Shown: in pieces, positions 1-60,230 of the stretch | How positions within the stretch are numbered: position 1 is the stretch's first letter | Layout of the letters: the number at the start of each line of letters is the position of its first letter | DNA from: a virus | Lineage: Duplodnaviria > Caudoviricetes | Length of the DNA: 64,000 bases | Strand: one strand, 5' to 3' | IMG/VR virus record: IMGVR_UViG_3300028591_000087 | Coordinates: 96,001-160,000 of that record | Notes under the pieces: generated by a model | What the model saw: only the letters and a program-made list of their open reading frames with translations | What the model was told of the DNA's origin: nothing | The model's database searches: none | Position numbers and translations under genes: made by a program

Positions 1-929
1 ACAATGTAATTCACAATGTGACTGGTGGACATGAAAGTCTTACAAGCTAGGGTGAATGGCGTTTGCTTCCAGATTATAAGTTATATACCTATTCTGAAAT
101 GAACGATCAGAATGGTCTAGCTTATTTTGATGCTGGCTATTATGGAAATAGTAATAAGCATATTGTTGAACAAACAGATACTTTAGGTGAAGCTATTCGT
201 AAGATTTCAAATGAATTAGCTGATTTGAATTATCAACCACAAACTGCAAAGCTCTTCGCGCACGCAAGAGTAGAGGGCGAAGCTAATTCAGATTATCTTG
301 CTGTTGAAAATGGAAAAAATATTACCGATATAACTCTTGATTATGAATTAAATAAAGGTCCTCGTTACTCTATTTCAATTCAAGATATTACGGGAACTCC
401 TCGTACAATTTATTCTGCGACTATCAGTGATACATTGGCGCACTTAGCCAGTGGATATGCTGAAACTGCTACTGGCACTCAGCACGATACTGATGGTATT
501 GAAAGTACGATAGGTAATAGAGACCATGATATTACGTATCGTATATCTGTTGTAGATGAACGTTCTAATACTGCAACAGCAAATGCAGTGATTAAATATA
601 TGAACAAATGTTATTGGGGCGTTGGATCTGCATACAGCGCTAGTGCTCTTGATAATATTACTCATTTGGACAATGCTATTACTGGTGGCTCAAAACTTAC
701 GAGAGAAAAGTTCAATCCACCTACAATGATAGCAGGAGAAAATCAATATGTTTATTGGATGCAACCTGCTTCATTTGATGATCCTATTTTCCGCATGAAC
801 TGTGTTGAAGGTGGAATGGATTACTTAGGCATTGTTGAATTTACTAATGCTTCTAATTATGCAACAAATTATAAAGTATGGCGTAGCACTAATACCAAAC
901 TTGGTAAAGTTGATTTAATGGTACTATAA
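1..929 (+). CDS. Phage structural (tail-associated) protein, 5' partial; one in-frame TAG (48-50)
   Basis: Frame open from base 3 through TAG 48-50 into ORF 63..929; ends TAA followed by the GGAGG RBS of the next gene. Confidence 0.7.
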
Positions 930-942
930 GGAGGGAATATAA

Positions 943-3171
943 ATGCAAACAATGGATCATAATAACTTACAATTTCCACAAGGAGAAAATTTATATTCCA
1001 CTCCATATGATTATAATAAGACACTAGGTTTAGATGAAAATTGTGTATTAACTAATGAGCGCACATATGCTGGCACAGTAGTAGTGCCATCAGGTTTGAC
1101 GCAAGTTAATGGAAATGATTTCCCATTAATTCATGCAAAAGACATACAGATTGGTAATTATCCGCAAGATAGATTAACTTATAAGTTAGAAGTTTATGAT
1201 GCTATCTTGCGTGATTTATATGGCACAAGTTCTCCAACGGTTTTGGAAGCATTGCCAGATGGACGTGATCCATTAGATCTTGCTTCTATTGGAGACAATG
1301 ATGGAGCCTCTGGATTAACTGGCATACATTCTTTAACACGTATTGCTCAAATTCTCAACAATAGAACTGAAACGATTGATGATCGTATTATTGATCTTCG
1401 TATTTTTAAGACTGTAAGCATTGGTGCGCAAGGTACATATACTAGTGATTGGGAGACTGGGTCAGAAGCAACTGATTTGATTTCTGATAGTAATCATGAT
1501 ACATTATCAATTGCATCTAAAAATAAATGGATTATTTTAGATGCAGATACCGATCATGACTCATTCACTATTGGTCACTATAAGAAAGACTTTAATCCTA
1601 CTACAAGCACATTAGATTTAAATAGTTCTGGTACTTTTGATATACCTTCTTATGTATATGATGAAGCTGGTCATGTAACTGCAAAAGATACAAAGACATT
1701 AACATTGCCTTATAATTATAAGACAATCGCTTTAAACAATGCTTTGTCAACTGCTGTTACTGATATCACTACGAATAACACATCTGTTGTAGCTGACGAT
1801 CAAGTAGAAACAGTTACATTTATTGCTGGCAATAAATGGATTAGATTTGCTGGCGAAACTACGACAGGTAAATCAATTACCTTCGCGCATTTGCTCTCTG
1901 TATTAACATAGGGTGCTCATGCAAGTGGTTGGTCATTAGATGCGCAAACGCCATTATTTGGTGCGACGTTTAATATGCTTATTCCGGCAGTTTCTTTCAC
2001 TACTGATGAAGCAGGTCATATAACTGCATATGAATATTCAAATAGTACAACGACAGTATAGATCCCTATGCTATCTGTTGTTGATAATGCAACAGGTGAT
2101 ATTGTAACTGGATTAAGTGTACAAACTTCCAATAATACAAGTAATGGTACATTTACAACTACTCGCGCATATGTTGGATCATTTGCATTAACTGGTTATA
2201 TTGCACCAGATTTACCATTTGGATATTATGCATCTACTGATAATAATCCAGAACATATAAAGAAAGTACGTAGTAGTATCGCTGCGACAGATACACTACA
2301 ATCTGCTATTGCTTCTTTACAAACTTATGCTTATAATAACCAGGTGGCTATTGAAACAGAAGTTGTTGATCGTCAACAGGCAATTACTAATTTGATTAAT
2401 GGCGCATCATCAGATTATGATACATTAAAAGAATTAGAAGATGCAATAAAGCAAGAAGTTACTGATCGTGGCATTGCAATTACTAATTTAATAAATGGTG
2501 CTTCTGATGGCTATGATACTTTTAAAGAGTTAGAGGATGCTATTAAACAAGAGACGACAGATCGTGGCACAGCCTTAACGAACTTAGTAAATAATGCGAG
2601 TGCTAACTTCGACACTCTTGGCGAGATTGAAACTTAGGTTACTAACCATACCAGTAACACAAGCAATCCTCATCAAGTAACAGCCACACAGGTTGGTTTA
2701 GGTAATGTTACTAATGACGCGCAGATTAAAGCATTAAGTTCATTAGCTTCTGGCAATGTTGGCAAAGTTGCTATTTGGTCTGCGGCAAATGAATTGGGCG
2801 TAAGTGATTATACTATTGGTAAATCAGTTCCTTCTGATGCAGTGCTTACTGCTACTGCTATTAATGAATTGATTACTACACAATTAGAAAGTTTCTCTAA
2901 GAATTTTGATATGACTGTGAAGATGCCGAACTCTGTTTCTTGGGCATACAATGAAGATACAGGTATATTAAGTGCTTCTCAAGTTGGGGATTTGTCTGGT
3001 GTTACTATTTCGATCGAAAAAAACGAGGGCTCCAGTTGGGTTCCCGTTACCGATCCCGTCCCAGCAGATGGAGACGAGTTCAGAGCTATCGCTTCAAGAA
3101 CTCTCACCGTTGGTGAATCAACATTCTCTGGAACGAAGATATTCAATCAAACTTATACTTATCACGAATAA
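943..3171 (+). CDS. Tail fibre-like protein, 742 aa with TAG=Gln (TAG at 1909, 2059, 2635)
   Basis: Three track ORFs share one frame, separated only by TAG. Readthrough gives the fibre motif NPHQVTATQVGLGNV. Also contains DEAGHVT motifs and three ITNLINGA..YDTLKELEDAI coiled-coil repeats. Confidence 0.8.
2380..2634 (+). repeat. Three imperfect ~87-bp coding repeats (AITNLINGASxxYDTLKELEDAIKQExTDR)
   Basis: Visible in the translation of ORF 2068..2637. Confidence 0.8.
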
Positions 3172-3178
3172 AATATCT

Positions 3179-3214
3179 GGGTCTATGTTGGTTAATCCAC
3201 ATAGACCCTTTTTT
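3179..3214 (+). terminator. Rho-independent terminator
   Basis: GGGTCTATGT-loop-ACATAGACCC followed by TTTTTT. Confidence 0.8.
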
Positions 3215-3259
3215 AATGTATAAAGATGAGAAAACTATTTACCGAAGGAGTTGAATTAT

Positions 3260-4174
3260 ATGGCTGAATCCAATACTAAAGTGTTGTTCAAATTTGGCTC
3301 TAGAGCGGAATATGAATCCTTGTCACCGATACAAATACAAAATAATGCGTTATACTTTTTAACTGATACTAATGAGTTATATCGTGGTTCCGTACCGATG
3401 TGTAAGTCTCATTATTATGAAGGCGAAGTACAGAAAGAAGAAACAGTATTACACGCACAAGCTCGTATTCTCGATGAGGCAATTCCGGTAGCTAATGATA
3501 TTCTCGTTTTATGCTATGAGAATGGTAATAGAATTCCATATATCTATACTGAAGACGCAGGTTGGAAATTATTAATCAACGTTGTTGTTGAAGGTTCCAC
3601 TCCTGTTGAAGCAGGTATGGATTATGACGCACTTGATGAGGATGTTTTCTCTACAATTGAAGAAAATAATGAAACAGTTGGTTTTACACTTAAAGATTTT
3701 GGTGTAAAGTATTATGATTATGTTGATGGTAATTATGTTTTGGTTACTGTTGACGATCAGCATCCTTGGCCAACTGGTCTTACTCCAAGAGTAACCTTGG
3801 AGAATGGTCGCCCAGTATTAGGTTGGTTTATGCCGAATCCGGATACTGGTGCGGGACAAGCTGAAGATCTTACTGCGCTTAAGCAGGATGTTGCTGACTT
3901 AAAGTCAATTGTAGGTCATGCCGGCACAGGTAGTTCCCCAGCTACTGGTTTAGTCCAGAAAGTTGGATCTTTGGTTGAAAAGATTAAGATAGGTAGCACA
4001 ACCCTTACTCCAGTTGATGGTATATTAGAGCTTAATATTTTCGACGGTACAAATAATGGTTTAGTTCCAAAACCTTCCGGAATTAGCGGAATTAAAGTTC
4101 TTGGTTCTAATGGTTATTGGCTTGATCCAAATGATTTCTTTGAACTTGAATGGAAACCTATTTTAGAATCATAA
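3260..4174 (+). CDS. Tail-associated protein with an Mtd_N-like N-terminal module
   Basis: GAAGGAG RBS then ATG 3260; N-terminus KVLFKFGSRAEY...NALYFLTDTNELYRG. Confidence 0.65.
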   Translation: MAESNTKVLFKFGSRAEYESLSPIQIQNNALYFLTDTNELYRGSVPMCKSHYYEGEVQKEETVLHAQARILDEAIPVANDILVLCYENGNRIPYIYTEDAGWKLLINVVVEGSTPVEAGMDYDALDEDVFSTIEENNETVGFTLKDFGVKYYDYVDGNYVLVTVDDQHPWPTGLTPRVTLENGRPVLGWFMPNPDTGAGQAEDLTALKQDVADLKSIVGHAGTGSSPATGLVQKVGSLVEKIKIGSTTLTPVDGILELNIFDGTNNGLVPKPSGISGIKVLGSNGYWLDPNDFFELEWKPILES

Positions 4175-4195
4175 TGACAGCAAGGAGGAAATATA

Positions 4196-5899
4196 ATGGC
4201 TAATTTGTTTTTTAAGCGTGGTTTAAAAGCTAACCTTGCTACTGCAGCCGTTCAAGACGGTGCTATTTATGTAACTACCGATGAACACGCAATGTATGTT
4301 GACGTTGGTGAAACTCGTATTCGTTTAGGCGATTTTAGAGAATACCCAACTTGGGCAAAAATTGCAGCGTTACCAGCAGCTAAATTAGATACCACAGCTC
4401 TTTATTATGCAGCCCAGGAAAATATTCTTTGTAAATATACTGGAGATCCAGCTGGTGCCGATGGTGGTTGGGTACAAATTAATGCTCAGTCTAATTTAGC
4501 AGGCATTTTAACCGCAGTTATTAATTCTACTACTGCTATTGCAGGTACTAACAATGTTGGAGCAGGTACCGCAGTACAGACTGATTATAAAGATAAGAAT
4601 AGTGTAACTGCACGCACTAGCACTGTAAATTATGTTTCTGGTAATGAATATATTAATGTCGCAGGTTCTTCAAATGCGCAGACTGGTGTAGCGACAGTAA
4701 CTATTACTCCAGAGCATATTGTTGAAAGTGCTTCTATTAATGCAGCTGAAGACCAGAATAATGCTGGTGATGTTAAGTTAATTATTACTAACAGCAAGAC
4801 TGGTACTACTGCGTAGGGCACTGCAGTCAACAATTCTACTGAATCTTTCATTACCTTAAGAGGTAACGGCATTGCTTTAGCAGAAAATAATGGCATTTTA
4901 ACCTTCACCAATGAAGGCGGCGTTGTTAGTGTTAACAATGCATTTGACTCTAATGGTAAGTTCGAAACAGTTGTTACATTGACAACTGGTGACACAGTAA
5001 GATCTAATACTGTATCTCCTGCAACAGCTCTTACACCTACTATTCGTTATGGTCAGGTTACTTCTGATGCAGTATTCGCAAATGGCGTAGCTGTTCTTGA
5101 TATTTATACTAAGAGTGAAGTAGATACCAAGATCTCTAATGAACTTAGGGCTGTTAATGCAATGACCTTCAAGGGTGCTATTGGTCAGGGTATGGGCGCG
5201 TCTTCTGATGATTTACCTACATCTAATGTCGCTAATGGTGATACATATATTGTAAATTCTGATGGCGATTATGGTGATGATGGCACTAATTACTTATATC
5301 CAGATTGCCGCAAGGGCGATTTGTTCCTCGCTCAAGGTACTGAAGGGACAGATGGATATATTCCAGCAAATGATCTTACTTGGATTTATATTCCATCTGG
5401 TGATGATATTTCTCAGACCTATTCATTCAAATATGATAATTCCACTGGTAAGGTTCAGTTAGTTGATTCTGCACTTAGTCCTGTAAGTTCTATCGTTGCT
5501 GGAACTGATATTGCGCTTAGCGGTGATAATACTACTAAGGATATGACAATTAGCCATGCTAATGTCACCCGTACTAATACCACCGGTACCGCACAGACTC
5601 AGGTATCTGGTAATGGTCCATTTGCGGTAAGTGTAATTACCGGTGTTACTACATCTGCTACTGGCCATGTAACAGGAGTTGAAACAACTACTCTTACAAT
5701 TGCCGATGAATTCAATCAGCTTCTTTCTCTTGGTGTTACTACTTCTGTTGAACAGAATGGTGATGCTAAGATTAACATTGCTGTTGCAGATGGTAAGACT
5801 TCAGTAAATAATGACTTGTACTTGCGTTCTAATTCTCTCACCTTTGGTTCTGCTTCTGGTGGAGTTACAACAATTGAAATGCAGTGGGGTTCATTCTAA
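4196..5899 (+). CDS. Tail fibre-like protein, 567 aa with TAG=Gln (TAG 4814)
   Basis: AGGAGG RBS; ORFs 4196..4816 and 4979..5899 are in one frame with only TAG between them; N-terminus LFFKRG...DGAIYVTTDE; YTKSEVDTKI and MTFKG motifs. Confidence 0.8.
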
Positions 5900-5912
5900 T
5901 AAAAAAAATAAA

Positions 5913-5938
5913 GGGGCGGTGAAAACCGCCCCTATTAT
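5913..5938 (+). terminator. Intrinsic terminator hairpin
   Basis: GGGGCGGT-GAAA-ACCGCCCC with an A-tract upstream and a weak T tail. Confidence 0.7.
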
Positions 5939-5962
5939 TGTCAGAGAGAAGGGAGTTTTAAA

Positions 5963-8900
5963 ATGGCTTTCAGCACATCTAGCGATCCTTTTAAAGTGTA
6001 TCGTGGTTTAGAAGCAAAGATAAAAGACGAATATCAAACTCCTATTGTCAATGGCCGTGTATATTTTGCTTATGACTCTGATAAAATCTTCTATGACGCT
6101 CAGGGCGTTCGTCATGAAATTTCTGGCGGCGGTGATGTATCATTTATCAAAGCCAAAAGTGCGCCTACATTTGAAGGCGATACTGGTTATTATGTCTTCC
6201 CTATGGCAGATATCGAAGCTAAGAAATTAGCAGTTGATAATATTGTCTTAGCAATAGATGACTGTATCTACCGTGTAGTTATCATTGATGACGAAACAAA
6301 TGTAGTTAAAACAAAGCAGATAGCCGGCGGTGGCGGCGGTGGTGGTGTAACTAATCCACTTACAATTACCACAGTGTCTAATTTCCCTAACCGTACTATT
6401 GATACGGAAGATGTAACTTGTACGATCAAAGTTAATTCTATGATTACAACTGATCAGACTTGTATGTTACAAGTATTTGTCAATAACGTAGAAGTTACTA
6501 ATTTAGGTAATTTGGATTTCCCACTCCGCACAGAGGCTGATTTCACAATCCCTCATCGTTATTATCGTTTAGATGGTGTTAATGAAGTTAAATTTGTTGC
6601 AACAGTTGATGAGAATACAAAAGAAAAGACAATGCGTTTCTATGCGTTCCATTCTGAATTTGCTGTAACTGATTTCAACTATCGCGCACCTTACGGCACA
6701 GATGAGGCAGTAACCAAAGTTTTAAACATTGGTTATAGTTTTACTGGCTTGGATGAAATCTATGGTCATATTCATTTCACTATTGATGGAGAAGAACTCT
6801 GGGATCTTAGTAATGAGATCGATCAACAGGTTCTTGCGGCTGGCGGCGGTCAGATTAGAAGCTCCATTGGTAGTTTAACAATTTCTTGTTTAAGAGAAGA
6901 GTTTGTTACTCTTGAACATGGAAATCACACTTTGACTCTTAATGCTTATGCAGTTGTTAATAATGAAGAGTTCTTTGTTAATTCTGTAAGCTATGATATT
7001 ATTTGGGCAACAGAAGCTGGCGCAGATACACCAATTATTATTAGTGCTTATCCAGACTATGCAGAAGAAGAAAACTATAATATCATTAGTATTCCTTATT
7101 TGATTTATGCAAAGAATACTGAAAAGATTATTACACATTTGTATGTTAATAATCAAGAGTTAGCAACGAGTCCTATTAACTATGAAAATAAAGGTTACAA
7201 TAGCTGGCAGTATTGGACTGTTTCTAAGTATACTCCTAACTTCACTAACACATTCTCTATGTTAGCCAATGTTGGTGGTAAGACTGCAATTCGTGAATTT
7301 ACAGTTAAGATTACCCCAAGTGATTTGAAGTTAGATGGTATTGCTGATGGTTTATTGTTATATTTAAGCGCACAAGATCGTTCTAATGCAGAATCTGCAT
7401 TAAGTCGTCAGACTTGGACTTATACGAATGACGCAAACAATCAGACCACCAATGCTCAATTCAGTGGCTTTAACTGGTATAATAATGGTTGGCAATTGGA
7501 CGATGATGGTGATAATGTACTTCGTTTAAACAACGGGGCGAGAGTAACCATTCCATTCGATCAAGTGTTACAAGTTGATATGCCATCCAGAGGTTTCACT
7601 ATTGAAACTGAATTTCGTTGTCGTAACGCTATTAACTTCGCTAAGTTATTAACTTATTCTTCTAAATCTATTCAGGATACGGATGAATATGGCAACTTAT
7701 TATGGGAAACTGAAGTTGTATATGAAGAAGATGGCGTAACGCCTAAGATGAAGATTCAGATGATGCGTGACGAGCATGGTCAAGAGACAGATATTCCTGT
7801 ACAGGTTGTTGACGCACGTGGTCACTTAGCGTATGAGATCCATACTGGAGATGATCCAGAAACTGGAGAAGAAATTTGGGCAACTTATTATGCTTGGGAA
7901 GATGAGCAAGGTAATGTTACTTATTGGACCAAGAAGAACGTACAATATGCCGATGATCAAGGTAATCCAATTATTCCTGCTCCAGCAAATATTAGACCTA
8001 TTTATGTTTATGAAGAAGTAACAAGAAACGTAAAGAGAGATCCTAATGGCGCAGATGAAGCAAGTAACTGGGTTCCTATTATGGTTGCTGATGGTGCTGT
8101 TACTAAATAGATCAATTATGTTTTAGATGACAATGGCGATCCTACTGATCAAGTAGCTAATGCTGTTGGTACCTTCTTCGGAAATAAACGTGGTTTGTGT
8201 ATTGGTACACAAGAAGCTTTCTTCGCTTCTCGTGACATCACAGTAAACGTTCGTTATGCTGATAATGATAAAGTAAAGATTTCTGTCGTTGCTGACACAG
8301 TATCTAAATTACTTTATATCTATATTAATGCTGTTCTTTCTGGTGTTGAGCGTTTTAGTGATAGAGACGTATTCTCTACTGGCGCGCTTGGAATGATCTT
8401 CAATTCTGATTATTGTGACTTAGACCTTTATACAATTCGTATTTATAATAAGCCACTTAATTTTGCTGAAATTGTTTAGAACTGGGTTGGTGACGCTCCT
8501 AACTTACAGGAAAAGAGAAAACGTTATCAAGAGAATAGTATTACTCATATTGATAGCCGCAATGGCTATGTAACATTAGACTATGATTTAACTAGAAAGT
8601 TAAGTAAGGATATGGCTGATAATTATAAGACTCAGATTGCTCTTGGTAATTCCGATGCGCAAAAGGGTCTTCCAATTGCAGTTATTTCTACTTATCCTTC
8701 TCACCTATCTAACGATACTAAGTCTGACTTGTTACCTTATAATAAGGCAATCAAGCAGTATGTTGATATTCGTTTCTGGGATCCAAATGGTGATGTACCG
8801 AGCTTTAAGGCACAAGACTTTGAATTATCTGTTCAGGGTACATCTTCTCAAGGTTATCCTCGTCGTAATTATAAAGCTAAATTGAAAGCAACTGATGCGG

Positions 8901-50429: not shown

Positions 50430-50446
50430 ATTATCACCTATTTTAG

Positions 50447-50477: not shown

Positions 50478-50499
50478 TATTTACCTGTCTGGGACTTAA

Positions 50500-50865: not shown

Positions 50866-50903
50866 TCTATACAGATTATACCATAAATTTTTTTCAAGAT
50901 CAA
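50866..50903 (-). promoter_or_regulatory. SigmaA-type promoter
   Basis: TTGATC...TGGTATAAT. Confidence 0.65.
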
Positions 50904-51100
50904 ATATTTTTTTCTTTTAGATAATCTTGAATCAATTCATCAAGTGCTATCATCTCTTGGAAGTCTAATTCTTGTGCTTGCTGTGTTTGCATCATGCGAT
51001 TCTTCGCTTCGTTTACTTCATTATGATCAGTACTTGTCTGGATGGTATATTCCAGATCAGCAATTTTTTTAGCTAATTGCTTAAGCTGTTTCTTAGTCAT
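50900..51100 (-). CDS. Hypothetical protein
   Basis: Own promoter and AAGGA RBS. Confidence 0.7.
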   Translation of the reverse strand: MTKKQLKQLAKKIADLEYTIQTSTDHNEVNEAKNRMMQTQQAQELDFQEMIALDELIQDYLKEKNI

Positions 51101-51121
51101 AAGATATTTTTCCTTTTCTTT

Positions 51122-51163
51122 ATCTTACATACATATTATATAAAAAATTTTTATGAAAATCAA
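51122..51163 (-). promoter_or_regulatory. SigmaA-type promoter
   Basis: TTGATT...TATAAT-ATGTATGTAAG. Confidence 0.65.
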
Positions 51164-51175
51164 CTAGGCTGTGCA

Positions 51176-52387
51176 TCAACCGAATATAGAAGTTAGCGTG
51201 CATTCCTTAGGATCTTTATCATCTCGAACACGCTTGAAGTAGAAGTGTCTGAGTGTATGATCTTCTTTGTGCTTCTCCATTCCCGCAAGTTCAACCACTT
51301 TATAAATATACTTGAATGGCTCTTCTTTAAGTTCCTCTTGCATTTTTTCGGTTAAGCCAGAAGATATAGTACCAATTTCAACTACCATATTATTTTCGTC
51401 ATATGCGCCAATGCGGATTGCTGTTGGCCACCCATAATAATAGGCTTTTGTTACTGGCATTACTTCATGTTCTAAATCTTTATAAACTGCACGTTTGTCA
51501 ATAGGAACTCGACGTTCGCTTATCAACTCTCTTGGCGCACCATTATCAGAGAATGGAGAATATTCTTCAATAACCCAATAAGGCCAAGACAACGCTGGAT
51601 TACTCATAGATTCAGTCAATGCTTCATCTATACGTCCATTCTCATCAAGAGCAGTATAGTTTGGTCCAATATTTAATTTACCAGAATAATACTTGGTAGG
51701 TTCACAGGTACCAATACAAATTGCATCACAAGAATCAGTTTTCTTTACTTTGATCGTGTCCCAAACTGGACGCTTACCAGGTGCATAATGCGCAGTTCTT
51801 TTCTTTAGAACCATGCCTTCTTCACCATTCTCAAGAGCAGAGATACAGGCATCTTGAATGTTTTCTTCTACACAACCTGCAAGTTCCATAAACGGATATG
51901 CGCATAAGTTATATTTCTTTACTATTGCTTCAAGAATCTTGTATCTATTATACGCACCAACTTCAATCAAAGACATTCCATTAAAGTAGATACAATCATG
52001 CATATAATAGTGCAATAGTCCATAGCCTTGCTGTTGACGCTCTATTGCTTTATCAGGAAGTGATCCCATAATAGGAGTTACATCTTTTGATTCTTTGCCC
52101 GGATAATAAATTTCACCGATAATGATGGTACCCGCGGGCAAAACATTCAAAACGTTCATAATATGTGGAACATTTGCGCCCTTTTCCGCAAGTATACCAG
52201 TTTTCTTAGAAACAGTTCTACTCCATAAATATGAAGCATCATCTGTTTTTTCAAATTGATACCAATAACCATCCTTTTTTAATTGTGCAAAGTAATCACC
52301 AGATGCACAAATAGAGGGAAAGAGATCTTCTTTTCCCTCGGGAATCTTATTGATTTTCATAGGTTCTATACAAAATGGCTTACTCAT
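51176..52387 (-). CDS. ATP-dependent DNA ligase
   Basis: QLKKDG (motif I), IIGEI, YMHD, EGMVLK, KVKK, GTISSGL, LRH..F.RVRDDK. Confidence 0.88.
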   Translation of the reverse strand: MSKPFCIEPMKINKIPEGKEDLFPSICASGDYFAQLKKDGYWYQFEKTDDASYLWSRTVSKKTGILAEKGANVPHIMNVLNVLPAGTIIIGEIYYPGKESKDVTPIMGSLPDKAIERQQQGYGLLHYYMHDCIYFNGMSLIEVGAYNRYKILEAIVKKYNLCAYPFMELAGCVEENIQDACISALENGEEGMVLKKRTAHYAPGKRPVWDTIKVKKTDSCDAICIGTCEPTKYYSGKLNIGPNYTALDENGRIDEALTESMSNPALSWPYWVIEEYSPFSDNGAPRELISERRVPIDKRAVYKDLEHEVMPVTKAYYYGWPTAIRIGAYDENNMVVEIGTISSGLTEKMQEELKEEPFKYIYKVVELAGMEKHKEDHTLRHFYFKRVRDDKDPKECTLTSIFG

Positions 52388-52388
52388 C

Positions 52389-54794
52389 TTATACCCTCAC
52401 TGCACTCACTAAGCTATTATCTTTAATCAACTTAATCGTTGAACTTGTTCTTGATCCAAGAGAAATGTCAGACACATTTACACATATAGATCCAGTGTTT
52501 CCGCACAGAAGAAGGCTTCCAGTGCTTTCAAGCCCACCGACGCCCGTGACGATCTTGCCTGAGTGATTAACTTTAAGGCCCTTACCAGATCTATTCTGCT
52601 TAGTGAATTCATTAACCATAACTCTCTTCCCTGTTCCGTCGCTACAGCCAATGAAAACCTGCCCGATGGCATCCTTGCTATTACTGTTCCCATCTTGTCC
52701 GAGACTGATACCCACGGTTGCTTCATCGTTATCCGCAAGTCTGATTCCTTGAACTCCAACAGAACATCTTCCAGTTGCTCCAACTGTCGCTCCATCAAAT
52801 CGAATCCCCATACCTTCCTTAGTTAAAATCAAAATGTCTGTGTTTGATCCGACCCATACTCCAATAATAGAGTCATCTTCTCTAAGCTTGATCGCTTGAA
52901 CTCCACCTTTACGTTTTGTACCCACGTATTCGGATACCAGCGTCTTCTTGACCAAACCTCGCTTAGTAACGAACCACACATACTGTCCAGCATTTTCTGT
53001 CCTCTCGGCTGAGGTAATTGCTACCACTTGTTCCGCAGGTGCCATCTCCACTAACGTAGAAATCGCTGTTCCACGGGAAGTTTGTGTTCCTTCCGGAATT
53101 GTGTCGACACCAACTCGGTAAACTTTACCTTGTGTAGTGAAGGCGAGTAATACATCTACCGTATTAGTCTCAATTGTAGCTAAGGTGATATCATCCTGTG
53201 TCTTTACTCCCTTACCATTACGTTTCTGAACTTTGAACTGTTTTTTCGGTATGCGCTTAATATTACCAGCTTCTGTTGCTACAATCACAACATCTTCCGG
53301 CACTATTTGCGCAACCTCTTTTTCTTCTTTTGTGACTTCAATATTAGTTACAGTAGTTCTACGTTCGTCACCAAACTTATTCTTAAATGCTTCAAGTTCT
53401 GCAATAAGATCTTTTTTAAAGACTTCTTCATCACTCAAACGAGTAACTATTAAAGCCTTTTCCGCATTTTTATCTTTTCTCTCTTGTTCAATAGCCAATT
53501 TCTCCATATTGGCTAATCTACTTAAAGTCATCGCAAGAATTGCTTCTGCTTGTTCATCAGTGAAATAATATCTCTTTTTTAACTGAACGTGCGCTTCTGC
53601 TTTATTCTTAGATCCTTTAATTAATTTAATGACATTATCAATATCATCAAGTGCCATACATAGACCATCAAGAATATGAATACGTTGTTCCAATTTCTTT
53701 AGATCATATTCATTTTTTCTGCGGAATACATCTTCTTGATGCTCTACATAGTATTTTATGATATCAACCAATGTTAATTGTTTCGGCACTTTATTCACAA
53801 GTGCTACCATATTAACACTAAATGTAGTTTCCAGATCAGTTAATGCATATAATTTATTAGCAATTACATCTGCATTAACACCCTTTTCCAGTTCCACAAC
53901 GAACCGTAATCCTTCTCTATTTGATTCGTCAAGTATTTCTCTAATGCCATCCAATTGCTTGGTTTCACAGAGTTCATCAATTGTTGTAACCAACTGTTCT
54001 TTAGACACCTTATAGGGAATTGAATCGAATACCAGTCTATCACGTTTGTCTGGAGTGACATCGACATGATAAAGTCCTCGTACTCGCACACGACCTTTAC
54101 CGCTTGTATAGATATTTCTAAGTTCCTTTTCATTGATAATACAACCACCGGTGGGGAAATCTGGTGCCTGAAGTATCTCTGCAAGCGATACATTGTCCGT
54201 CGCAGTTCCCCTAATGTATGCGATAATTCCATCCATGACTTGTCGAAGATTATGAGGGGCAAAATTGCATGCCATTGCGACAGCAATCCCAGTTGTTCCA
54301 TTGCAGAGGAGATTTGGGAAAAGTCCTGGAAGATATACCGGTTCAGATCCAGTTTCGTCGAAGTTAGGGATCCAGTCAACAGTGTCTTTTTTGATGCCAT
54401 CAAGTGTTGCCTCACTTATTTTGCTTAATCTACATTCAGTATATCTCATCGCTGCGGGAGGATCTCCATCACGACTGCCGTTATTTCCATGGAACTCAAT
54501 GAGAGGGTACCGCATATTCCACGGTTGGCTTGACCCTACCAATGCGCCATATATTGAACTATCACCATGCGGATGATACTTACCCATTGTATCGCCAACA
54601 GGTCTCGCGCACTTAACATATTGTTTATCAGACTTATATCCACTTTCCTGCATACACCAGAGAATGCGTCGCATAACTGGCTTTAAACCATCTTCTACTG
54701 CGGGAATCGCACGATCTGTGATAACAGAAAGTGAATAATCAAGAAATGATTGTTCAACCTCTTGGACTATTGGGGCTTGAATAATATTATCCAC
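52389..54794 (-). CDS. gyrA: DNA gyrase/topoisomerase IV subunit A
   Basis: DGLKPV, YHPHGDSS, AAMRYTE and GyrA-box-like QKRNGKG; C-terminal beta-pinwheel repeats. Confidence 0.93.
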   Translation of the reverse strand: MDNIIQAPIVQEVEQSFLDYSLSVITDRAIPAVEDGLKPVMRRILWCMQESGYKSDKQYVKCARPVGDTMGKYHPHGDSSIYGALVGSSQPWNMRYPLIEFHGNNGSRDGDPPAAMRYTECRLSKISEATLDGIKKDTVDWIPNFDETGSEPVYLPGLFPNLLCNGTTGIAVAMACNFAPHNLRQVMDGIIAYIRGTATDNVSLAEILQAPDFPTGGCIINEKELRNIYTSGKGRVRVRGLYHVDVTPDKRDRLVFDSIPYKVSKEQLVTTIDELCETKQLDGIREILDESNREGLRFVVELEKGVNADVIANKLYALTDLETTFSVNMVALVNKVPKQLTLVDIIKYYVEHQEDVFRRKNEYDLKKLEQRIHILDGLCMALDDIDNVIKLIKGSKNKAEAHVQLKKRYYFTDEQAEAILAMTLSRLANMEKLAIEQERKDKNAEKALIVTRLSDEEVFKKDLIAELEAFKNKFGDERRTTVTNIEVTKEEKEVAQIVPEDVVIVATEAGNIKRIPKKQFKVQKRNGKGVKTQDDITLATIETNTVDVLLAFTTQGKVYRVGVDTIPEGTQTSRGTAISTLVEMAPAEQVVAITSAERTENAGQYVWFVTKRGLVKKTLVSEYVGTKRKGGVQAIKLREDDSIIGVWVGSNTDILILTKEGMGIRFDGATVGATGRCSVGVQGIRLADNDEATVGISLGQDGNSNSKDAIGQVFIGCSDGTGKRVMVNEFTKQNRSGKGLKVNHSGKIVTGVGGLESTGSLLLCGNTGSICVNVSDISLGSRTSSTIKLIKDNSLVSAVRV

Positions 54795-55353
54795 AGTTAC
54801 ACGCCTTTCTAATCCTTTTGATTGTTTCATCTACTGGATACTTTTTCATAGAGTAATCCAAAAGGATTTCACTTAATTCTATATTTATTTTATCATTTTT
54901 TTCATCTATTTTCAAATGAGTATCATTTGTAATGGCACCTGTTGCTAGCTTATCAGCAAGCTCATTATATGTATGCCCGCTATGACCCTTTACTTTATTG
55001 ATATAGACATAATTGTTTCTGAAATATGGAATTAAAAGTTCCCATATATCTTTATTTGCGACAGGTTCCTTTTTACTATTAATCCAACCACTATTTTCCC
55101 AATTTATATACCATTTATCAAAATAGCAATTACAAAAGTAAGCACTATCACTGTGTACAGTACAAACTTCTGATGGTTCATAGTCAGACCAAAATTTTAA
55201 TGCTTCTAAGGCTGCACGTAATTCCATACGCTGATTTGTTGCATTTGGCTCCGTACCATGGAGACGAGCAACTTCTTCACCATTATGTAGAACTATTACA
55301 CCCCATCCACTTCTGTTTTTAGTAGCAGAGCCATCTGTATATAAATCAATCAT
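54787..55353 (-). CDS. rnhA: Ribonuclease HI
   Basis: YTDGS, TNQRMEL, SDSAY, VKGHSG..NELADKLA. Confidence 0.93.
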   Translation of the reverse strand: MIDLYTDGSATKNRSGWGVIVLHNGEEVARLHGTEPNATNQRMELRAALEALKFWSDYEPSEVCTVHSDSAYFCNCYFDKWYINWENSGWINSKKEPVANKDIWELLIPYFRNNYVYINKVKGHSGHTYNELADKLATGAITNDTHLKIDEKNDKINIELSEILLDYSMKKYPVDETIKRIRKACNCG

Positions 55354-55915
55354 TTTCTACATCCTTATTTGCTTGATATATTTTTTGTATATATTTAGAT
55401 TTTAAAACTTGCTCTGGATCTTCGCCATGCTGAACTGCATTGTCTAAATCTGCGAAAATAATATCTAACATTATTTTATTCTGTGCGTGCATTGCGCATT
55501 TCTGACGTTTATTTGCCCACCATTTGCGTTCAGCTTGATAAGAAAATTTATCACCTAAATAAGCCCGAGCCGCACTAAGATAATCACAAATCATTTCTGT
55601 AAAATCTTTTTCTGGCATCAAACGAGGAATACCACCATCATCAAAATTATCCATCCAATATTCATAATGATGGGAATTTCTACCCTTATGATGCATCCAA
55701 GCATAAGAGATACCATTCTCTTTTTTCGCTTCATTGATAGGCGATCCAGTGCCAATCCAATAGCGTGCTGATTCAAAAAATTCGACAGGACTATACTTAC
55801 TAAGGTCATGAGTCAAACCACGCCATGGAATTCCCGCTAAAAAACAATAGTGTCTAACCCATTTGCGATGTGTCTGTATTGTTCGCAAATGATTCCACAT
55901 TTTTTTAAACGTCAA
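55346..55915 (-). CDS. HD-like / DUF5662-type protein
   Basis: HRKWV..HDLSK..HHKGRNSHHYEYW..EMICD. Confidence 0.6.
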   Translation of the reverse strand: MTFKKMWNHLRTIQTHRKWVRHYCFLAGIPWRGLTHDLSKYSPVEFFESARYWIGTGSPINEAKKENGISYAWMHHKGRNSHHYEYWMDNFDDGGIPRLMPEKDFTEMICDYLSAARAYLGDKFSYQAERKWWANKRQKCAMHAQNKIMLDIIFADLDNAVQHGEDPEQVLKSKYIQKIYQANKDVEND

Positions 55916-57830
55916 TGTTCGCACGGAATGCATTCTCCTCAATAAATTTCTTTCTTAATGTCGCACTTTCACCCATAAGCGCGTTGAAGGTATTACTTGC
56001 TTCTGTGACGTCGTCCATTGTGATAAGTTTAAGAGTGCGCGTAGCGGGAGCCATCGTAGACTCAGCAAGCTCATCGACTGACTGTTCTCCCAAACCTTTA
56101 AAACGGCGTAGTTCGTAGTTGCCAGAGTGCTTGGAACGATAATCGGCAAGAGCAACGTCATCTTTAATATAGATTGATTCTTTACCTTTGATAATTCTAT
56201 AAAGGGGAGGTACAGCCGCATACACATATCCTTTCTCAATCAACTCTGGACAAAACTTCCAGATGAATGTCAGGAACAAACAACGAATATGGTCACCATC
56301 GACATCAGCATCAGCCATAATAATGATTTTTCCATACCGAAGTTTATTCTCATCAAGAATAATCTTATTGTTTTGAACTTGAAGTCCAAAAGCAATAATC
56401 ATACTCTTAATTTCCTCATTCCCCATAGCTTTTGATAAATCCGCTTTAAGGACATTAAGAATCTTACCTCTGATAGGAAGGATTGCTTGGGTGTCTCTAT
56501 TACGAGCTTCTTTTGCAGAGCCTGCTGCACTATCTCCCTCGACGATAAAGACTTCGCAACTATTCCTGTCCCTATTGGAGCAATCAGCCAATTTCCCAGG
56601 TAGTGTAGTGCGACTAGCCTTAGCTGTCGTGTTTCTAACCACTTCTTTGGCTTTTCTTGCCTTCTCACGAGCAGTCCTTGCGAGGACAGCCTTTCCAATA
56701 ATAGCTTTTGCGTCTTTCTCATGCGCATTAAGCCAATCAGAGATGGATTGCGAGCAAAGTCGTTGAACGATTGTTCTACCTTCTGCACTTGTCAATACTC
56801 CTTTTGTTTGTCCACTAAATACCGGATCTGGCATCGTAAGACTAAGTACAAGTGTAAGACCTTCTTTAAGATCCTCACCACTGAAATTTTCATCCTTTTC
56901 TTTCAAAAGACCCTTTGCACGCGCATATACATTAATTGCTTGCGTAAATGCTGTGCGGAAACCAGTTAAGTGAGTACCTCCTGTATTCGGTATACTGTTA
57001 GTAAAGATACGGTATACATCACTAAATTGATCAGTATATTGAAGTGCAACCCGCACTCTCATTCTATTTTCAACATTCTCCGCATAAAATGGAGAAGTTA
57101 ATTTATTCTTATTTTTTGTAAGAACATCCAAATAATCTAATAGACCATTTGAACTTTCAATTTCAACTTTATCTAAAACTCCTTTGTCATCATGCTTAGA
57201 TAAAGTAAAATGAAGTCCAGGAGACAGATATGCAAGTTCCCAAAGTTGCTTCTTTAATCTGTCATAATCAGGATTTATATTATCTTCAAAGATTTGTTCG
57301 TCTGGAATAAACTGAACAACAGTGCCATGCGGCATATCAGTTTTATTCTGCTTTCGCACGCTAAATTGTAACAGTGCGCCGCGAGCGAACGCAGCCGTAG
57401 CTACTTTACCATCGCGGTAACTATCAACTCTGAATACGCTGGATAGTGCATTGGTCGCCTTTGCACCAACACCATTCATACCACCAGAAGTATTATACCC
57501 ACTGTTACCATCGCTATCGAACTTAGCGCCAGTATGAAGTTTAGTATAGATATTAATGAGGACCTCTTCGCCATCATCATTTTTACCAAAGGGGACTCCT
57601 CTGCCATTGTCAGCCACAATAACGCGAGGCCCATCACACACAACAGATATTTTATCACAAGCTCCTACCAAATACTCGTCAATAGCGTTAGATATTATTT
57701 CCAGCGTTATCTGCCATACACCTTCCGCATCAACTGCGCCGATGTACATACCGGGACGAGTACGGATGGCTTCCATACCTTCAAGTGTTTTAATATTTTT
57801 TACACCATATTCACTATTTGGAGTAGCCAT
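55905..57830 (-). CDS. gyrB: DNA gyrase/topoisomerase IV subunit B
   Basis: RPGMYIG, DNGRGVP, GGMNGVG, VEGDSA, PIRGKILN, DADVDG and RFKGLGE motifs. Confidence 0.95.
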   Translation of the reverse strand: MATPNSEYGVKNIKTLEGMEAIRTRPGMYIGAVDAEGVWQITLEIISNAIDEYLVGACDKISVVCDGPRVIVADNGRGVPFGKNDDGEEVLINIYTKLHTGAKFDSDGNSGYNTSGGMNGVGAKATNALSSVFRVDSYRDGKVATAAFARGALLQFSVRKQNKTDMPHGTVVQFIPDEQIFEDNINPDYDRLKKQLWELAYLSPGLHFTLSKHDDKGVLDKVEIESSNGLLDYLDVLTKNKNKLTSPFYAENVENRMRVRVALQYTDQFSDVYRIFTNSIPNTGGTHLTGFRTAFTQAINVYARAKGLLKEKDENFSGEDLKEGLTLVLSLTMPDPVFSGQTKGVLTSAEGRTIVQRLCSQSISDWLNAHEKDAKAIIGKAVLARTAREKARKAKEVVRNTTAKASRTTLPGKLADCSNRDRNSCEVFIVEGDSAAGSAKEARNRDTQAILPIRGKILNVLKADLSKAMGNEEIKSMIIAFGLQVQNNKIILDENKLRYGKIIIMADADVDGDHIRCLFLTFIWKFCPELIEKGYVYAAVPPLYRIIKGKESIYIKDDVALADYRSKHSGNYELRRFKGLGEQSVDELAESTMAPATRTLKLITMDDVTEASNTFNALMGESATLRKKFIEENAFRANIDV

Positions 57831-57927: not shown

Positions 57928-59196
57928 TTAACTCTCCCCATGAATTTTGGCTGCCAATTGAGCAACCTCGCTTCGTTCTGATTTTTGAAGTTCAATCGTC
58001 CCGAATAATTTATCGCCTTTAAGGCTATTCAATAGTGATGCAATACCACTGTTCTTGCGGAATATATCAGAATCTGTTTGAGATTCATCGCCAAGGAACC
58101 ATACTTCACTACCTTGTTCCGCACGACCAATTATTAATTTAACATTATCAGTTGTAAGATTCTCGGCTTCATCTACAAATATAATGCTATTTTTAATATT
58201 GCGCCCACGTATATATCCTAAATGAAGCGGTTCAATTTCACCGTTATCTATTGCTTGATACAATGCTTCCTGACCTCCCAAGTGGTCAGCAAGTGGCATA
58301 AGCCAAGGCATCAATTTTTCTTCTTGTTCACCAGGTAATGCGCCCAGTTTCTAAGAGCCTGCAACTTCAACATTGTTCCGCACATATACGATTCTATCAA
58401 AATGATGATATTTGACATAATTGATTGCATGTACCAGAGCTAAGAATGTTTTACCAGAACCAAATTGACCTCTAATCATTTTAACAGGAATATTTCTATT
58501 CTGTAATAGATCAAACATCATTCTCTATTGATCATTTCGTGGTTTTACCTTGCCAAAATAATCACTATTTTGGTCCTTATATTTTATAACATCATTTTTA
58601 GTTCCATCCCATTTAACTAGATCTACAATTTCATTATTTAATTTTAAAATTGCATATTCATTCGTCTCCAAGCCAAGGAAATTGGTCTCGGGATGTTCAT
58701 AATAGTTTGCCAAGGCTTGTTCATCTGATTTAAAATCAAATACTACAAAACCTTTCCAAAGTCCTTCTTTATGAGTTGTATCTTTATAATATTGAGGATT
58801 TAATTCCTCTATAAATTTGCAAGCAAGAAGAAACTAAGAAGAATCTGATGTAATAAATTCAATTTTCTATTTATTCTTGCGGGCAATTAATACAGCTTCA
58901 CAAATTAATTTACTATCGTTTTTATCTTGTAACTCTTCGGTTCTATCAAGTAATCTATTTATTTTTCTCCATTTACTATGAGGATCTTTCCATAGCTCTT
59001 GATGATCCATTAAGTAACGAATTAAAACTCGTGCTTTATATTTAATTGTTTCATCTTTTGAGTAAGAGGTTTTAATATCTTCTAATTCTGAAAAAACTAT
59101 TGTGCTAATGTAATTTACATCTTCTGAATCTAATTTATATCCTGCTAATAAAGCACTTGTATCAAAAAACTTAACTGTTTTCTCCAATGCTTTCAT
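57928..59196 (-). CDS. phoH: PIN-PhoH (PhoH2-type) fusion, 422 aa with four TAG=Gln (58867, 58834, 58525, 58351)
   Basis: PIN FFDTSAL..ELEDIK..ND..FITSD; PRNDQ(Q)R; Walker A GQFGSGKT; LGALPG; YIRGR; VDEAENL; GDESQTD. Three track ORFs join by readthrough. Confidence 0.88.
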
Positions 59197-59800
59197 CACC
59201 CTTACTATTGTTTTCACCGATGATTTCATCAACGAAGCCATATTTCAGCATATCGTCTGCATCAAAGAACCATTGCTTGCGCTCATGTTCTTTGTATTCT
59301 TCTGGTGTTACCTTAGTATGGGATGTAATAAAGTCACGCACTTTGTCATCAATCTTCTTGTTGAAAGTCATTGTGTCTTCAACAGAGAAAGCTTCACCAC
59401 TAAATGCAGTGCTTCCAGCATGGAGCAAAGCATATGAATATGGATAACATTTTCTTGTAACATTAGGATTATTGGATCCTGCGGCGAGAATAATGGTTCC
59501 CATACTTGCCGCATAACCAAGAACTATTACATTCAATGGTTTCTTATATTGATCTATAATATTACATAAAATGAATCCATCACTTAATGATCCACCAACA
59601 GTTGCTAAGATAAGTGTTACAGGATCATTACTATTGTCCTTTTCAAAATCCATTAAAGGAATTACAACTCTTTCAAAAATTCTTTCATCTACTTCTTGAT
59701 TAAAGATAATAGTGCGATTATTGAAAAGTTGAGTGAAATATTGGTAAGTTGCCGGGTCAATAGAAGTGGTATCCAATAATGCAGTTAAATCTTCTAACAT
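59171..59800 (-). CDS. clpP: ClpP-like serine protease
   Basis: GGAGGA RBS; TVGGS, YAASMG (catalytic Ser), LLH, YGFVDEI. Confidence 0.8.
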   Translation of the reverse strand: MLEDLTALLDTTSIDPATYQYFTQLFNNRTIIFNQEVDERIFERVVIPLMDFEKDNSNDPVTLILATVGGSLSDGFILCNIIDQYKKPLNVIVLGYAASMGTIILAAGSNNPNVTRKCYPYSYALLHAGSTAFSGEAFSVEDTMTFNKKIDDKVRDFITSHTKVTPEEYKEHERKQWFFDADDMLKYGFVDEIIGENNSKGDESIGENS

Positions 59801-59810
59801 AAACTCCTCC

Positions 59811-60230
59811 TTATAGTGCGAGCTAATCAATAGAGAAGTGCTCGCGTAATTGTAGCCATTCATCTACTGTCCCGCATACAATAGGTGGTGCGGGATTAAT
59901 CGCCAACTTATAATTGATAATCGCTGGGAGTTCAGGATCTTTATCAAGTTCTGATGGTAAAGCGCGAATCTTGTCAAGCTCCCAAGCTGTAATAAACTCA
60001 CGAGCCATCCAATATTCTTCGCCTCTGAATGGCATATCTTTTATCCAAGCATAAACTGTGGGCCAATGAATATAGACACAATCATTTTTTACAACATTGT
60101 TAAAAAATACTTCCCATCTATCTTCATGGCATAATCCATTGCGGATAAAATTACTTGTTAGTATTAGACCGCTTTTCTCTGAGTTTGGAATAGAGCCTGT
60201 CTTTTTCTGCAATAGTTGTTCGTAGGTCAT
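59811..60230 (-). CDS. Hypothetical protein (TAG 59823 read through to TAA 59811)
   Basis: Readthrough places the stop immediately before the clpP RBS. Confidence 0.6.

What the first reader, a model, noticed from the sequence alone, without database searches (positions are those of the whole stretch)
1..59825. Phage uses TAG as a glutamine codon (genetic code 15)
Seen: about 50 in-frame TAGs interrupt otherwise continuous, tightly packed genes. Genes end in TAA or TGA, and the three apparent TAG ends (26713, 46092, 59823) have a TAA within 3-4 codons. TAG sits where Gln is expected: GIY-YIG YVG*A and RWK*H, RuvC LALD*A, PhoH PRNDQ*R, fibre STDE*K. Established: TAG-to-Gln recoding occurs in Lak, some crAss-like and other gut phages whose hosts use code 11. 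The phenomenon is therefore known, but it hides or splits about 20 genes in this window.
Basis: partly seen in the sequence, partly recalled or inferred. Interest (0 to 1): 0.8.

Follow-up and report, generated by a model that had tools for sequence, protein, structure and literature searches.

The report
Rumen phage reads TAG as glutamine
This large sheep-gut phage reads the stop codon TAG as glutamine in its tail, lysis and a few other genes, a coding trick already known from other gut phages, so the finding is correct but ordinary; its own TAG-reading tRNAs carry an odd extra arm.

Summary
Observation and interpretation both hold. My curated gene set for the window has 52 in-frame TAGs in 21 genes. 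All 59 genes end in TAA or TGA, and coding density is 97% when TAG is read as sense.

Homologues point to glutamine. Gln is invariant or dominant at the TAG columns of the portal, PIN-PhoH, RuvC-like and GIY-YIG proteins. In related phage DNA, TAG alternates with CAA and CAG. Over 75 TAG sites, Gln beats every other amino acid by more than 500 log-likelihood units.

Replication genes (PolIII alpha, gyrase, NrdD, DnaB, ligase) carry no TAG. Structural and lysis genes carry most of them. This is the published pattern for code-15 gut phages (Borges et al.; Peters et al.; the phAss-1 group).

The window holds no tRNA. Two tRNA(CUA) genes lie elsewhere on the 193-kb contig. No release factor or GlnRS/GluRS gene was found.

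One twist: both suppressor tRNAs have a Gln-type acceptor end plus a long variable arm that displays a glutamine-anticodon-like loop (CUCUGAA). All 21 distinct long-arm relatives share it. This scan had already noted that design on other DNA, and I found no paper on it.

Verdict: a new member of a known kind, of modest interest.

The parts
3..29424 (+). Distal part of the late block (tail, baseplate, fibre, receptor-binding and lysis genes). The block begins about 43 kb upstream of the window, at genome 52683. It has 22 tightly packed genes here, 16 of them with in-frame TAG (35 TAGs).
   Evidence: for ORFs and counts. Pfam hits: LRR_5, Phage_fiber_2, Gp10_C twice, Laminin_G_3. Genome-wide, the late block has 198 TAGs in 33 of 44 genes, and TAG makes up 19.5% of its Gln codons.
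5963..14320 (+). 2785-aa fibre-like gene that code 11 splits into five or more pieces. In-frame TAGs at 8108, 8477, 9296, 9371 and 13880.
   Evidence: One frame runs 8.4 kb without TAA or TGA. The orthologue in relative G004 reads through all five places with sense codons. LRR_5 domain at residues 2614-2677.
24138..24713 (+). Gp10_C-domain receptor-binding-type protein, among the most heavily recoded genes of the window (6 TAG against 5 CAA/CAG).
   Evidence: Pfam PF21939, E 1.1e-17. TAGs at 24171, 24198, 24210, 24216, 24345 and 24618. An RNA-library contig of another sample is identical over 23405-25410.
27132..28532 (+). Endolysin (SpoIID, NlpC/P60-like and SH3 domains) with two TAGs (28035, 28041) in an inter-domain linker.
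   Evidence: Pfam. Relatives have K, D or Q at these places.
29874..30398 (-). RuvC-like Holliday-junction resolvase with 4 in-frame TAGs (30342, 30300, 30222, 29946).
   Evidence: Homologues carry PF02075. Q stands at X19 in 84 of 93 and at X151 in 60 of 93.
30346..57830 (-). Replication and nucleotide-metabolism block written in standard-compatible code: dUTPase, NrdD, guanylate kinase, PolIII alpha, SF1 helicase, RecJ, DnaB, AAA_24, ligase, GyrA, RNase H, GyrB. It has no in-frame TAG apart from the GIY-YIG gene and one TAG at 46092, three codons from the end of 46083-46277.
   Evidence: Pfam and counts.
49434..50429 (-). 331-aa protein with a C-terminal GIY-YIG nuclease domain and 7 in-frame TAGs, lying among TAG-free replication genes.
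   Evidence: I-TevI match, E 1.7e-07. Q at X259 in 146 of 150 and at X269 in 111 of 150 representatives.
57928..59241 (-). PIN-PhoH ATPase with 4 in-frame TAGs (58867, 58834, 58525, 58351).
   Evidence: Homologues carry PF13638 and PF02562. X239 is Q in 120 of 120. X136 is Q in 47 and M in 56. X297 is K in 67 and Q in 31.
26713..26727 (+). TAG three sense codons before the TAA of gene 26020-26727. The same arrangement occurs at 46083-46094 (-) and 59811-59825 (-). Whether TAG ends these proteins or adds 2-3 residues cannot be told.

Best explanation
The window is the middle third of a 193-kb tailed phage from a sheep gut or rumen metagenome. The phage translates TAG as glutamine (NCBI table 15). 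TAA and TGA remain the only terminators.

Decoding is done by the phage's own amber-suppressor tRNAs. Two tRNA(CUA) genes lie in the tRNA arrays at the contig ends, at genome c[4496-4588] and c[182267-182355], both outside the window. They have a Gln-type acceptor end: a weak or mismatched 1:72 pair, G2-C71 and G73. Host enzymes presumably charge them, since the contig encodes no GlnRS/GluRS and no release factor.

TAG-free genes (replication, nucleotide metabolism) can be translated as soon as the DNA enters a standard-code cell. Genes with in-frame TAG (virion, receptor-binding, endolysin, RuvC-like resolvase, PhoH, GIY-YIG nuclease) give full-length protein only once the suppressor tRNA is abundant. 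Recoding would thus act as a translational gate on late functions.

Shown: TAG is sense, it means Gln, the tRNA(CUA) genes exist, and the genes fall into two classes. Inferred: charging by host enzymes, competition with host RF1, and the timing role.
For: TAG is sense:
- Open frames of 8-11 kb, and coding density rising from 0.76 to 0.90 genome-wide, with 0.97 in the window.
- Relatives read through the same places.

TAG means Gln:
- Portal protein, 9 TAGs against 120 homologues: Q invariant at 3 and in the majority at 3 more.
- DNA of 17 IMG/VR relatives: the commonest partners of TAG are CAA (136) and CAG (59). CAA needs two changes from TAG, so this is not mere mutational nearness.
- 75 sites with 370 aligned residues: Q makes up 50%, against 54% for the phage's own CAA/CAG. 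Log-likelihood is -734 for Q, -1254 for E and -1425 for S.
- Window genes: PhoH, RuvC-like and GIY-YIG.

Stops: TAA 45, TGA 14, and TAG never the only stop.

Suppressor tRNAs: ARAGORN finds two with anticodon CUA. The first scores 52.4 bits on Rfam tRNA. The 5' half of the first resembles the phage's tRNA-Gln(UUG).

Gene classes: Pfam names for the TAG-free block. TAG share of Gln codons is 19.5% in the late block and 4.5% in the replication block, where it is confined to a few genes.

Published parallels: the same pattern in Borges et al. (bioRxiv 10.1101/2021.08.26.457843), including a recoded endonuclease inside an early region. NCBI files the distant relative phAss-1 under 'Caudoviricetes code 15 clade' (PMC10607447).

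The TAGs are real: identical contigs occur in another sample's RNA libraries.
Against: - There is no peptide evidence.
- The host and its genetic code are unknown.
- In the window's + strand fibre genes, the few aligned relatives show no Gln at TAG columns (V, T, I, G, S, W, K, A, D). These alignments are only 21-31% identical.
- The suppressor tRNAs look like class II tRNAs, with a long variable arm and G73. That is also the look of tRNA-Ser, so some mischarging with Ser cannot be excluded from sequence.
- The second tRNA(CUA) does not reach Rfam's tRNA gathering score.
- The timing role is inference only: no time course exists, and the RNA libraries may contain DNA.
Confidence: 0.92

Rival explanations
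1. TAG is read as another amino acid. Serine is the main candidate, because the phage tRNA(CUA) has the long variable arm and G73 that seryl-tRNA synthetase uses. Leu or Tyr are lesser candidates.
For: ARAGORN folds both tRNA(CUA) genes as 89- and 93-nt class II-like tRNAs with G73. I-TevI has Ser at the first GIY-YIG TAG. An earlier scan note reports a Leu-type amber suppressor in another rumen phage (untested here).
Against: Ser makes up only 9 of 370 residues opposite TAG. Log-likelihood is -1425 for Ser against -734 for Gln. Q is invariant at several TAG columns. The variable arm is a 2-3 bp stem with a 7-nt loop, not the 4-7 bp arm of tRNA-Ser. The acceptor end and D arm resemble tRNA-Gln.
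Confidence: 0.03
2. The TAGs are real stops: broken genes, assembly errors, or genuinely separate short genes that happen to lie in one frame.
For: Under code 11 most pieces still begin with a possible start codon.
Against: Pieces are always in the same frame with no TAA or TGA between them, for up to 11 kb. Homologues are continuous across the TAGs. Pfam domains span TAGs. An independent sample gives identical sequence. A tRNA(CUA) is present.
Confidence: 0.01
3. TAG does mean Gln, but the uneven use of TAG has no regulatory role. It would be drift after the suppressor was acquired, stronger in fast-evolving or horizontally exchanged virion and accessory genes, with purifying selection keeping TAG out of highly expressed early genes.
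For: In the window most + strand TAGs sit at variable positions of fast-evolving fibre proteins. TAG positions turn over quickly between relatives: portal genes carry 0 to 11 TAGs. No +4 context bias was seen. The endolysin has only 2 TAGs among 22 Gln codons, both in a linker.
Against: The split follows function sharply: about 30 replication genes carry none, while RuvC, PhoH and GIY-YIG beside them carry 4-7 each. The same split has evolved in unrelated recoded phage clades.
Confidence: 0.3

Closest known systems
TAG-to-Gln ('code 15') recoded gut phages described by Borges et al. (bioRxiv 10.1101/2021.08.26.457843; clades Garnet, Amethyst, Topaz, Lak and crAss-like), with proteomic proof in crAss-like phages by Peters et al. 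(PMC9523058)
   Same: In-frame TAG concentrated in structural and lysis genes. Replication genes are in standard-compatible code. The phage carries its own tRNA(CUA). It lives in an animal gut. An endonuclease gene inside the early region is recoded. Charging is presumed to be by host enzymes.
   Different: This is a different lineage: its portal matches none of the deposited phages above 50% identity. No RF2 or aaRS gene is present, whereas some Lak and Agate phages have RF2. No peptide evidence exists for this phage. I did not place it in any of the named clades.
phAss-1 / proposed Phassvirus group (OQ749652; Babkin et al. 2023, PMC10607447), filed by NCBI under 'Caudoviricetes code 15 clade'
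   Same: It has the second-closest portal among deposited phages and the closest that is annotated: 36% identity over 89% of the protein. TAG means Gln in virion genes. It has several tRNA-Sup(CTA) genes, many tRNAs and no dedicated aaRS. Its wider kin include phages of Bacillota.
   Different: phAss-1 is 136 kb, from human gut, with 36 tRNAs. This contig is 193 kb, from sheep gut, with 71 tRNAs in two paralogous arrays. At 36% portal identity it is not the same genus. The paper does not mention a long variable arm.
E. coli supE (tRNA-Gln with anticodon CUA) and the known tendency of GlnRS to charge amber suppressors (established knowledge; cited)
   Same: A CUA anticodon on a body with a weak 1:72 pair and G73 is accepted by GlnRS and inserts Gln at UAG.
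   Different: supE is a point mutant of an ordinary 75-nt tRNA. The phage tRNAs carry an extra 19-25-nt arm with a Gln-anticodon-like loop. The host's route to Gln-tRNA (GlnRS, or GluRS plus GatCAB) is unknown.

Membership tests
Stop-codon-recoded phage, TAG to Gln (NCBI table 15) | In-frame TAG inside otherwise intact, conserved genes | tested here: met
   52 TAGs in 21 window genes. Pfam domains and homologues span them.
Stop-codon-recoded phage, TAG to Gln (NCBI table 15) | TAG columns correspond to Gln in homologues | tested here: met
   Q is the maximum-likelihood residue by 520 log units over 75 sites. TAG alternates with CAA and CAG in related DNA. Q is invariant at several columns.
Stop-codon-recoded phage, TAG to Gln (NCBI table 15) | TAA and TGA still terminate; TAG is not used as a terminator | tested here: met
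   Stops are TAA 45 and TGA 14. Three genes have a TAG 2-3 sense codons before a TAA.
Stop-codon-recoded phage, TAG to Gln (NCBI table 15) | Phage-encoded suppressor tRNA with anticodon CUA (common, not universal) | tested here: met
   Two genes on the contig, none in the window.
Stop-codon-recoded phage, TAG to Gln (NCBI table 15) | Recoding biased to structural and lysis genes, early and replication genes standard-compatible | tested here: met
Stop-codon-recoded phage, TAG to Gln (NCBI table 15) | Gln found at TAG in peptides | not testable with these tools
   No proteome data were available.
Stop-codon-recoded phage, TAG to Gln (NCBI table 15) | Host uses the standard code | not tested
   The host was not identified. 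Distant portal relatives infect Bacillota.
Phassvirus (phAss-1 genus) | Genus-level nucleotide similarity and synteny with phAss-1 | tested here: not met
   The portal is only 36% identical. This is a distant relative, not a member.
Class II tRNA of Ser identity (considered for the suppressor) | Long variable arm with a 4-7 bp stem, Ser-type acceptor stem, and Ser at the decoded codon | tested here: not met
   The arm is a 2-3 bp stem plus a 7-nt loop. The acceptor and D arm are Gln-like. Ser is not enriched at TAG columns.

The most novel reading that the evidence does not exclude
The phage's amber-suppressor tRNAs may be 'two-headed'. Besides the working CUA anticodon arm, the variable region forms a small hairpin whose 7-nt loop copies a glutamine anticodon loop (Y-U-[C/U]UG-A/C-A/G, i.e. 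anticodon CUG or UUG).

This spare arm could be what lets host enzymes accept and correctly charge a stop-codon reader. Candidates are GlnRS, GluRS with GatCAB, or anticodon-loop modification enzymes. It could also serve as bait for anticodon nucleases.

I reproduced the design here for both tRNAs of this genome and for 19 other distinct phage sequences. The closing pairs covary.

Earlier notes of this scan saw the same design on other DNA. None of the papers I searched or opened describes it.
Probability: 0.35. Interest if true: 0.75.

Novelty: new member of a known kind. Interest (0 to 1): 0.3.

Why it matters
Practical value: under table 11 about 20 genes of this window, and much of the 73-kb late block, are split or lost. 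Any annotation of this phage and its many rumen and gut relatives needs table 15. More than 5,000 portal homologues were found, many on 160-195 kb contigs.

Biological value: it is one more independent lineage with the same split between TAG-free replication genes and TAG-bearing late genes. That adds weight to the idea that recoding gates late translation.

The open question it touches is how a standard-code cell charges a phage tRNA(CUA) with glutamine. The conserved spare Gln-anticodon-like arm on these suppressors gives a concrete, testable handle on that.

Tried and rejected
I therefore could not check from DNA how the database's full-length homologues were translated. I replaced this with codon-level comparison in IMG/VR loci.
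- From ARAGORN's fold (89-93 nt, long variable arm, G73) I first suspected a Ser-type suppressor and TAG meaning Ser. Homologue columns and likelihood rejected this.
- I-TevI shows S and R at the two GIY-YIG TAGs. That looked contrary until 150 family representatives showed Q.
- A search of solved structures with the RuvC-like protein gave nothing useful.
- The search for related loci with the 586-aa protein at 15083-16843 found no relative.
- Relatives found through the endolysin and through whole-record searches align with the fibre genes at only 21-31% identity. These alignments say nothing about the amino acid at the + strand TAGs of the window.
- Pfam found nothing for most virion proteins. 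PHROGs named the portal, the terminase and a sigma factor.
- No release-factor domain (PF00472) and no GlnRS/GluRS catalytic domain (PF00749) is on the contig.
- Rfam at gathering scores found no RNA family in the window, and no ribozyme beside the tRNAs in the parts of the contig scanned.
- The +4 base after TAG shows no clear bias.
- Four other hairpin registers for the variable arm (the loop shifted by one, 5-nt loops, a 6-nt loop) fail to pair.
- Runs X4-X24 hold only small shares of the sampled words. I draw no conclusion about habitat from them beyond the sheep-gut samples that hold most of the stretch.

Full report
WHERE THE WINDOW LIES. The window is bases 96001-160000 of a single 193,102-bp virus contig. 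IMG/VR classes it as linear, and CheckV rates it 100% complete. The best-holding sequencing runs are sheep gut metagenomes, and Rfam finds a 'cow-rumen-3' RNA on the contig. G+C content is about 37%. GC skew changes sign near 29.5 kb, where the genes switch from the + strand to the - strand.

THE OBSERVATION. Under table 11 the + strand half of the window breaks into many short ORFs. With TAG read as sense they fuse into long, tightly packed genes. I curated 59 genes.

- The set holds 52 in-frame TAGs in 21 genes. Thirty-five lie in 16 + strand genes, and 17 lie in five - strand genes.
- Every gene ends in TAA (45) or TGA (14).
- Coding density over 1-59825 is 0.971.

Genome-wide, a greedy ORF tiling covers 0.763 under code 11 and 0.897 with TAG as sense. 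Making TGA or TAA sense instead gives only 0.81 and 0.83. Between genome 70 and 100 kb the gain is from 0.45-0.75 to 0.99-1.00. Upstream of the window one frame runs 11.3 kb with 70 TAGs and no TAA or TGA. None of this can arise by chance in AT-rich DNA.

The TAGs are not assembly errors. Contigs from RNA libraries of a different sheep-gut sample and study match 23405-25410, 25565-26105, 26181-27092 and 29498-30445 without a single difference. Those libraries may contain DNA, so this shows the sequence is real, not that it is transcribed.

WHICH AMINO ACID. ARAGORN finds no tRNA in the window but 71 on the contig, two of them with anticodon CUA. It drew both as 89-93-nt tRNAs with a long variable arm and discriminator G73. 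That is the look of a serine tRNA, so I tested the amino acid with no prior assumption.

(a) The portal protein (genome 57065-58699, PHROG 2739) has nine TAGs. Against 120 homologues, Q is invariant at three of these columns and is the majority residue at three more. The other three columns show E/D, K/R or E/Q/K.

I therefore compared codons in the DNA of 17 IMG/VR relatives. At columns that hold a TAG in any sequence, the commonest partners are CAA (136) and CAG (59). All Ser codons together come to 17. CAA lies two mutations from TAG, so this is synonymy and not mutational nearness.

(c) I compared all genes against 23 related loci. This gave 75 of this phage's TAG sites and 370 aligned residues. 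Q makes up 50% of them, against 54% opposite the phage's own CAA/CAG codons. Using substitution profiles taken from the same alignments, the log-likelihood is -734 for Gln, -1254 for Glu (the next best) and -1425 for Ser.

(d) Inside the window:
- PIN-PhoH: X239 is Q in 120 of 120 homologues. X136 is Q in 47 and M in 56.
- RuvC-like: X19 (LALD*A) is Q in 84 of 93, and X151 is Q in 60 of 93.
- GIY-YIG: X259 (YVG*A) is Q in 146 of 150 representatives, and X269 (RWK*H) is Q in 111 of 150. The solved enzyme I-TevI has S and R at these two places.

The + strand TAGs of the window sit at variable positions of fibre proteins. Their few relatives align at 21-31% identity, so those alignments are uninformative. 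They do show that the relatives read through with sense codons. TAG is therefore glutamine.

WHICH GENES. The + strand block holds tail, baseplate, fibre and receptor-binding genes (LRR_5, Phage_fiber_2, two Gp10_C, Laminin_G_3) and an endolysin with SpoIID, NlpC/P60-like and SH3 domains. It continues a late block that starts at genome 52683 with a sigma factor, terminase and portal. In that block 33 of 44 genes carry TAG. There are 198 TAGs, which is 19.5% of all Gln codons there.

The - strand block encodes dUTPase, NrdD, guanylate kinase, DNA polymerase III alpha, an SF1 helicase, RecJ, DnaB, AAA_24, DNA ligase, GyrA, RNase H, GyrB and ClpP. None of these has a TAG. Three genes in this half do: RuvC-like (4), GIY-YIG (7) and PIN-PhoH (4). 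Two further genes have a single TAG near their end.

This is the pattern that Borges et al. describe for several unrelated recoded clades, down to a recoded endonuclease inside an early region.

HOW IT WORKS. Shown: two tRNA(CUA) genes lie at genome c[4496-4588] and c[182267-182355], inside two paralogous tRNA arrays. The first scores 52.4 bits on Rfam's tRNA model. The second is called only by ARAGORN.

Their acceptor ends have A1 opposite C72 or U72, G2-C71 and G73. The D arm and anticodon stem of the first resemble the phage's own tRNA-Gln(UUG). A weak 1:72 pair with G73 is the classical GlnRS signature. That is established knowledge, not something I tested.

The contig has no GlnRS/GluRS catalytic domain and no release-factor domain. 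Charging, and competition with RF1, must therefore rely on host factors. This is inferred. The proposal that TAG holds back late proteins until the suppressor accumulates is also inferred. It rests on the gene split and on the literature, not on a time course.

THE EXTRA ARM. A pattern built from the anticodon arm and T arm of these tRNAs found 52 IMG/VR contigs of 2-434 kb. Forty-four of the tRNAs have a 19-25-nt variable region. All 21 distinct long regions contain Y-U-[C/U]-U-G-[A/C]-[A/G], most often CUCUGAA.

Taking that heptamer as a loop, the first two closing pairs are formed in 21 of 21 sequences. The second pair covaries (C-G 12, G-C 8, U-A 1). Four other registers pair poorly.

The loop matches the anticodon loop of the phage's tRNA-Gln(CUG), CUCUGAC, at six of seven positions, and its central triplet is always CUG or UUG. 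So the 'long variable arm' is a small second hairpin that displays a glutamine anticodon.

Earlier notes of this scan describe the same design on other genomes. I reuse their reading, and I have tested it here for this genome. Neither my literature searches nor the three papers I opened turned up a description of it. Its function is unknown. It might help host enzymes recognise the tRNA, or it might bait anticodon nucleases. Geometry argues against simple use by the anticodon-binding domain of a synthetase that is bound to the same molecule.

COMPARISON AND NOVELTY. TAG-to-Gln recoding in gut phages is established (Borges et al.; Peters et al., PMC9523058; the phAss-1 group, PMC10607447). The closest annotated phage, phAss-1, has a portal only 36% identical. 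An unannotated human faecal phage scaffold, MT836163.1, reaches 50%. NCBI already files phAss-1 under 'Caudoviricetes code 15 clade'.

This phage belongs to a large, unnamed set of ruminant and gut phages. More than 5,000 portal homologues were found, many on 160-195 kb contigs. It meets every sequence-level criterion of the known kind. Peptide evidence and host identity could not be tested. The finding is therefore correct and useful for annotation, but it is a new member of a known kind. Only the suppressor tRNA's spare arm, which lies outside the window and which this scan has already seen elsewhere, goes beyond what I found described.

Noticed in passing
L001:4496-4588 (-) and L008:7267-7355 (-), i.e. 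genome c[4496-4588] and c[182267-182355], outside the window: Both tRNA(CUA) genes carry a 20-24-nt variable region. It forms a 2-3 bp stem and a 7-nt loop, CUCUGAA, which looks like a glutamine (CUG) anticodon loop. All 21 distinct long-arm relatives in IMG/VR have CUG or UUG there, and the closing pairs covary.
   Followed up: yes
L001:19504-19836 (-): Rfam tmRNA hit (102.5 bits, E 1.2e-38, full model) at the inner edge of the first tRNA array. This is a phage-borne tmRNA in a phage that rewrites a stop codon. ARAGORN's tmRNA search did not report it.
   Followed up: no
genome 1-19611 versus 172958-193102 (L001, L007, L008): The two contig ends are collinear copies at 65-96% identity, holding tRNA arrays and radical-SAM cassettes. 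The last 185 nt match 19427-19611 at 94.6%. This is either an old duplication or an assembly longer than one genome unit that runs through two strains.
   Followed up: partly
L008:11772-11912 (-): Full-length match to Rfam 'cow-rumen-3' RNA (RF03083, 108 bits) among the tRNA genes.
   Followed up: no
window 49434-50429 (-): The GIY-YIG protein has an N-terminal hydrophobic segment and a long coiled-coil-like region before the nuclease domain. This 330-aa layout is widespread: 313 representatives at E<=1e-30. It is the most TAG-rich gene of the replication block.
   Followed up: partly
window 24727-27119 (+): Five consecutive small genes start with near-identical M-[IV]-G-[TI]-T-[NS] peptides and then diverge. 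They are among the most heavily recoded genes of the window (TAG is 1-3 of their 3-10 Gln codons). I only confirmed the ATG starts and the open frames.
   Followed up: partly
window 23898-27115 (+), run X4: A bovine-gut strain 90-95% alike skips or replaces several of the small receptor-binding genes. Its contigs join 23898 to 24137, 25065 to 25465 and 26749 to 27115, the last with 395 other letters between. This suggests cassette swapping in that region.
   Followed up: no
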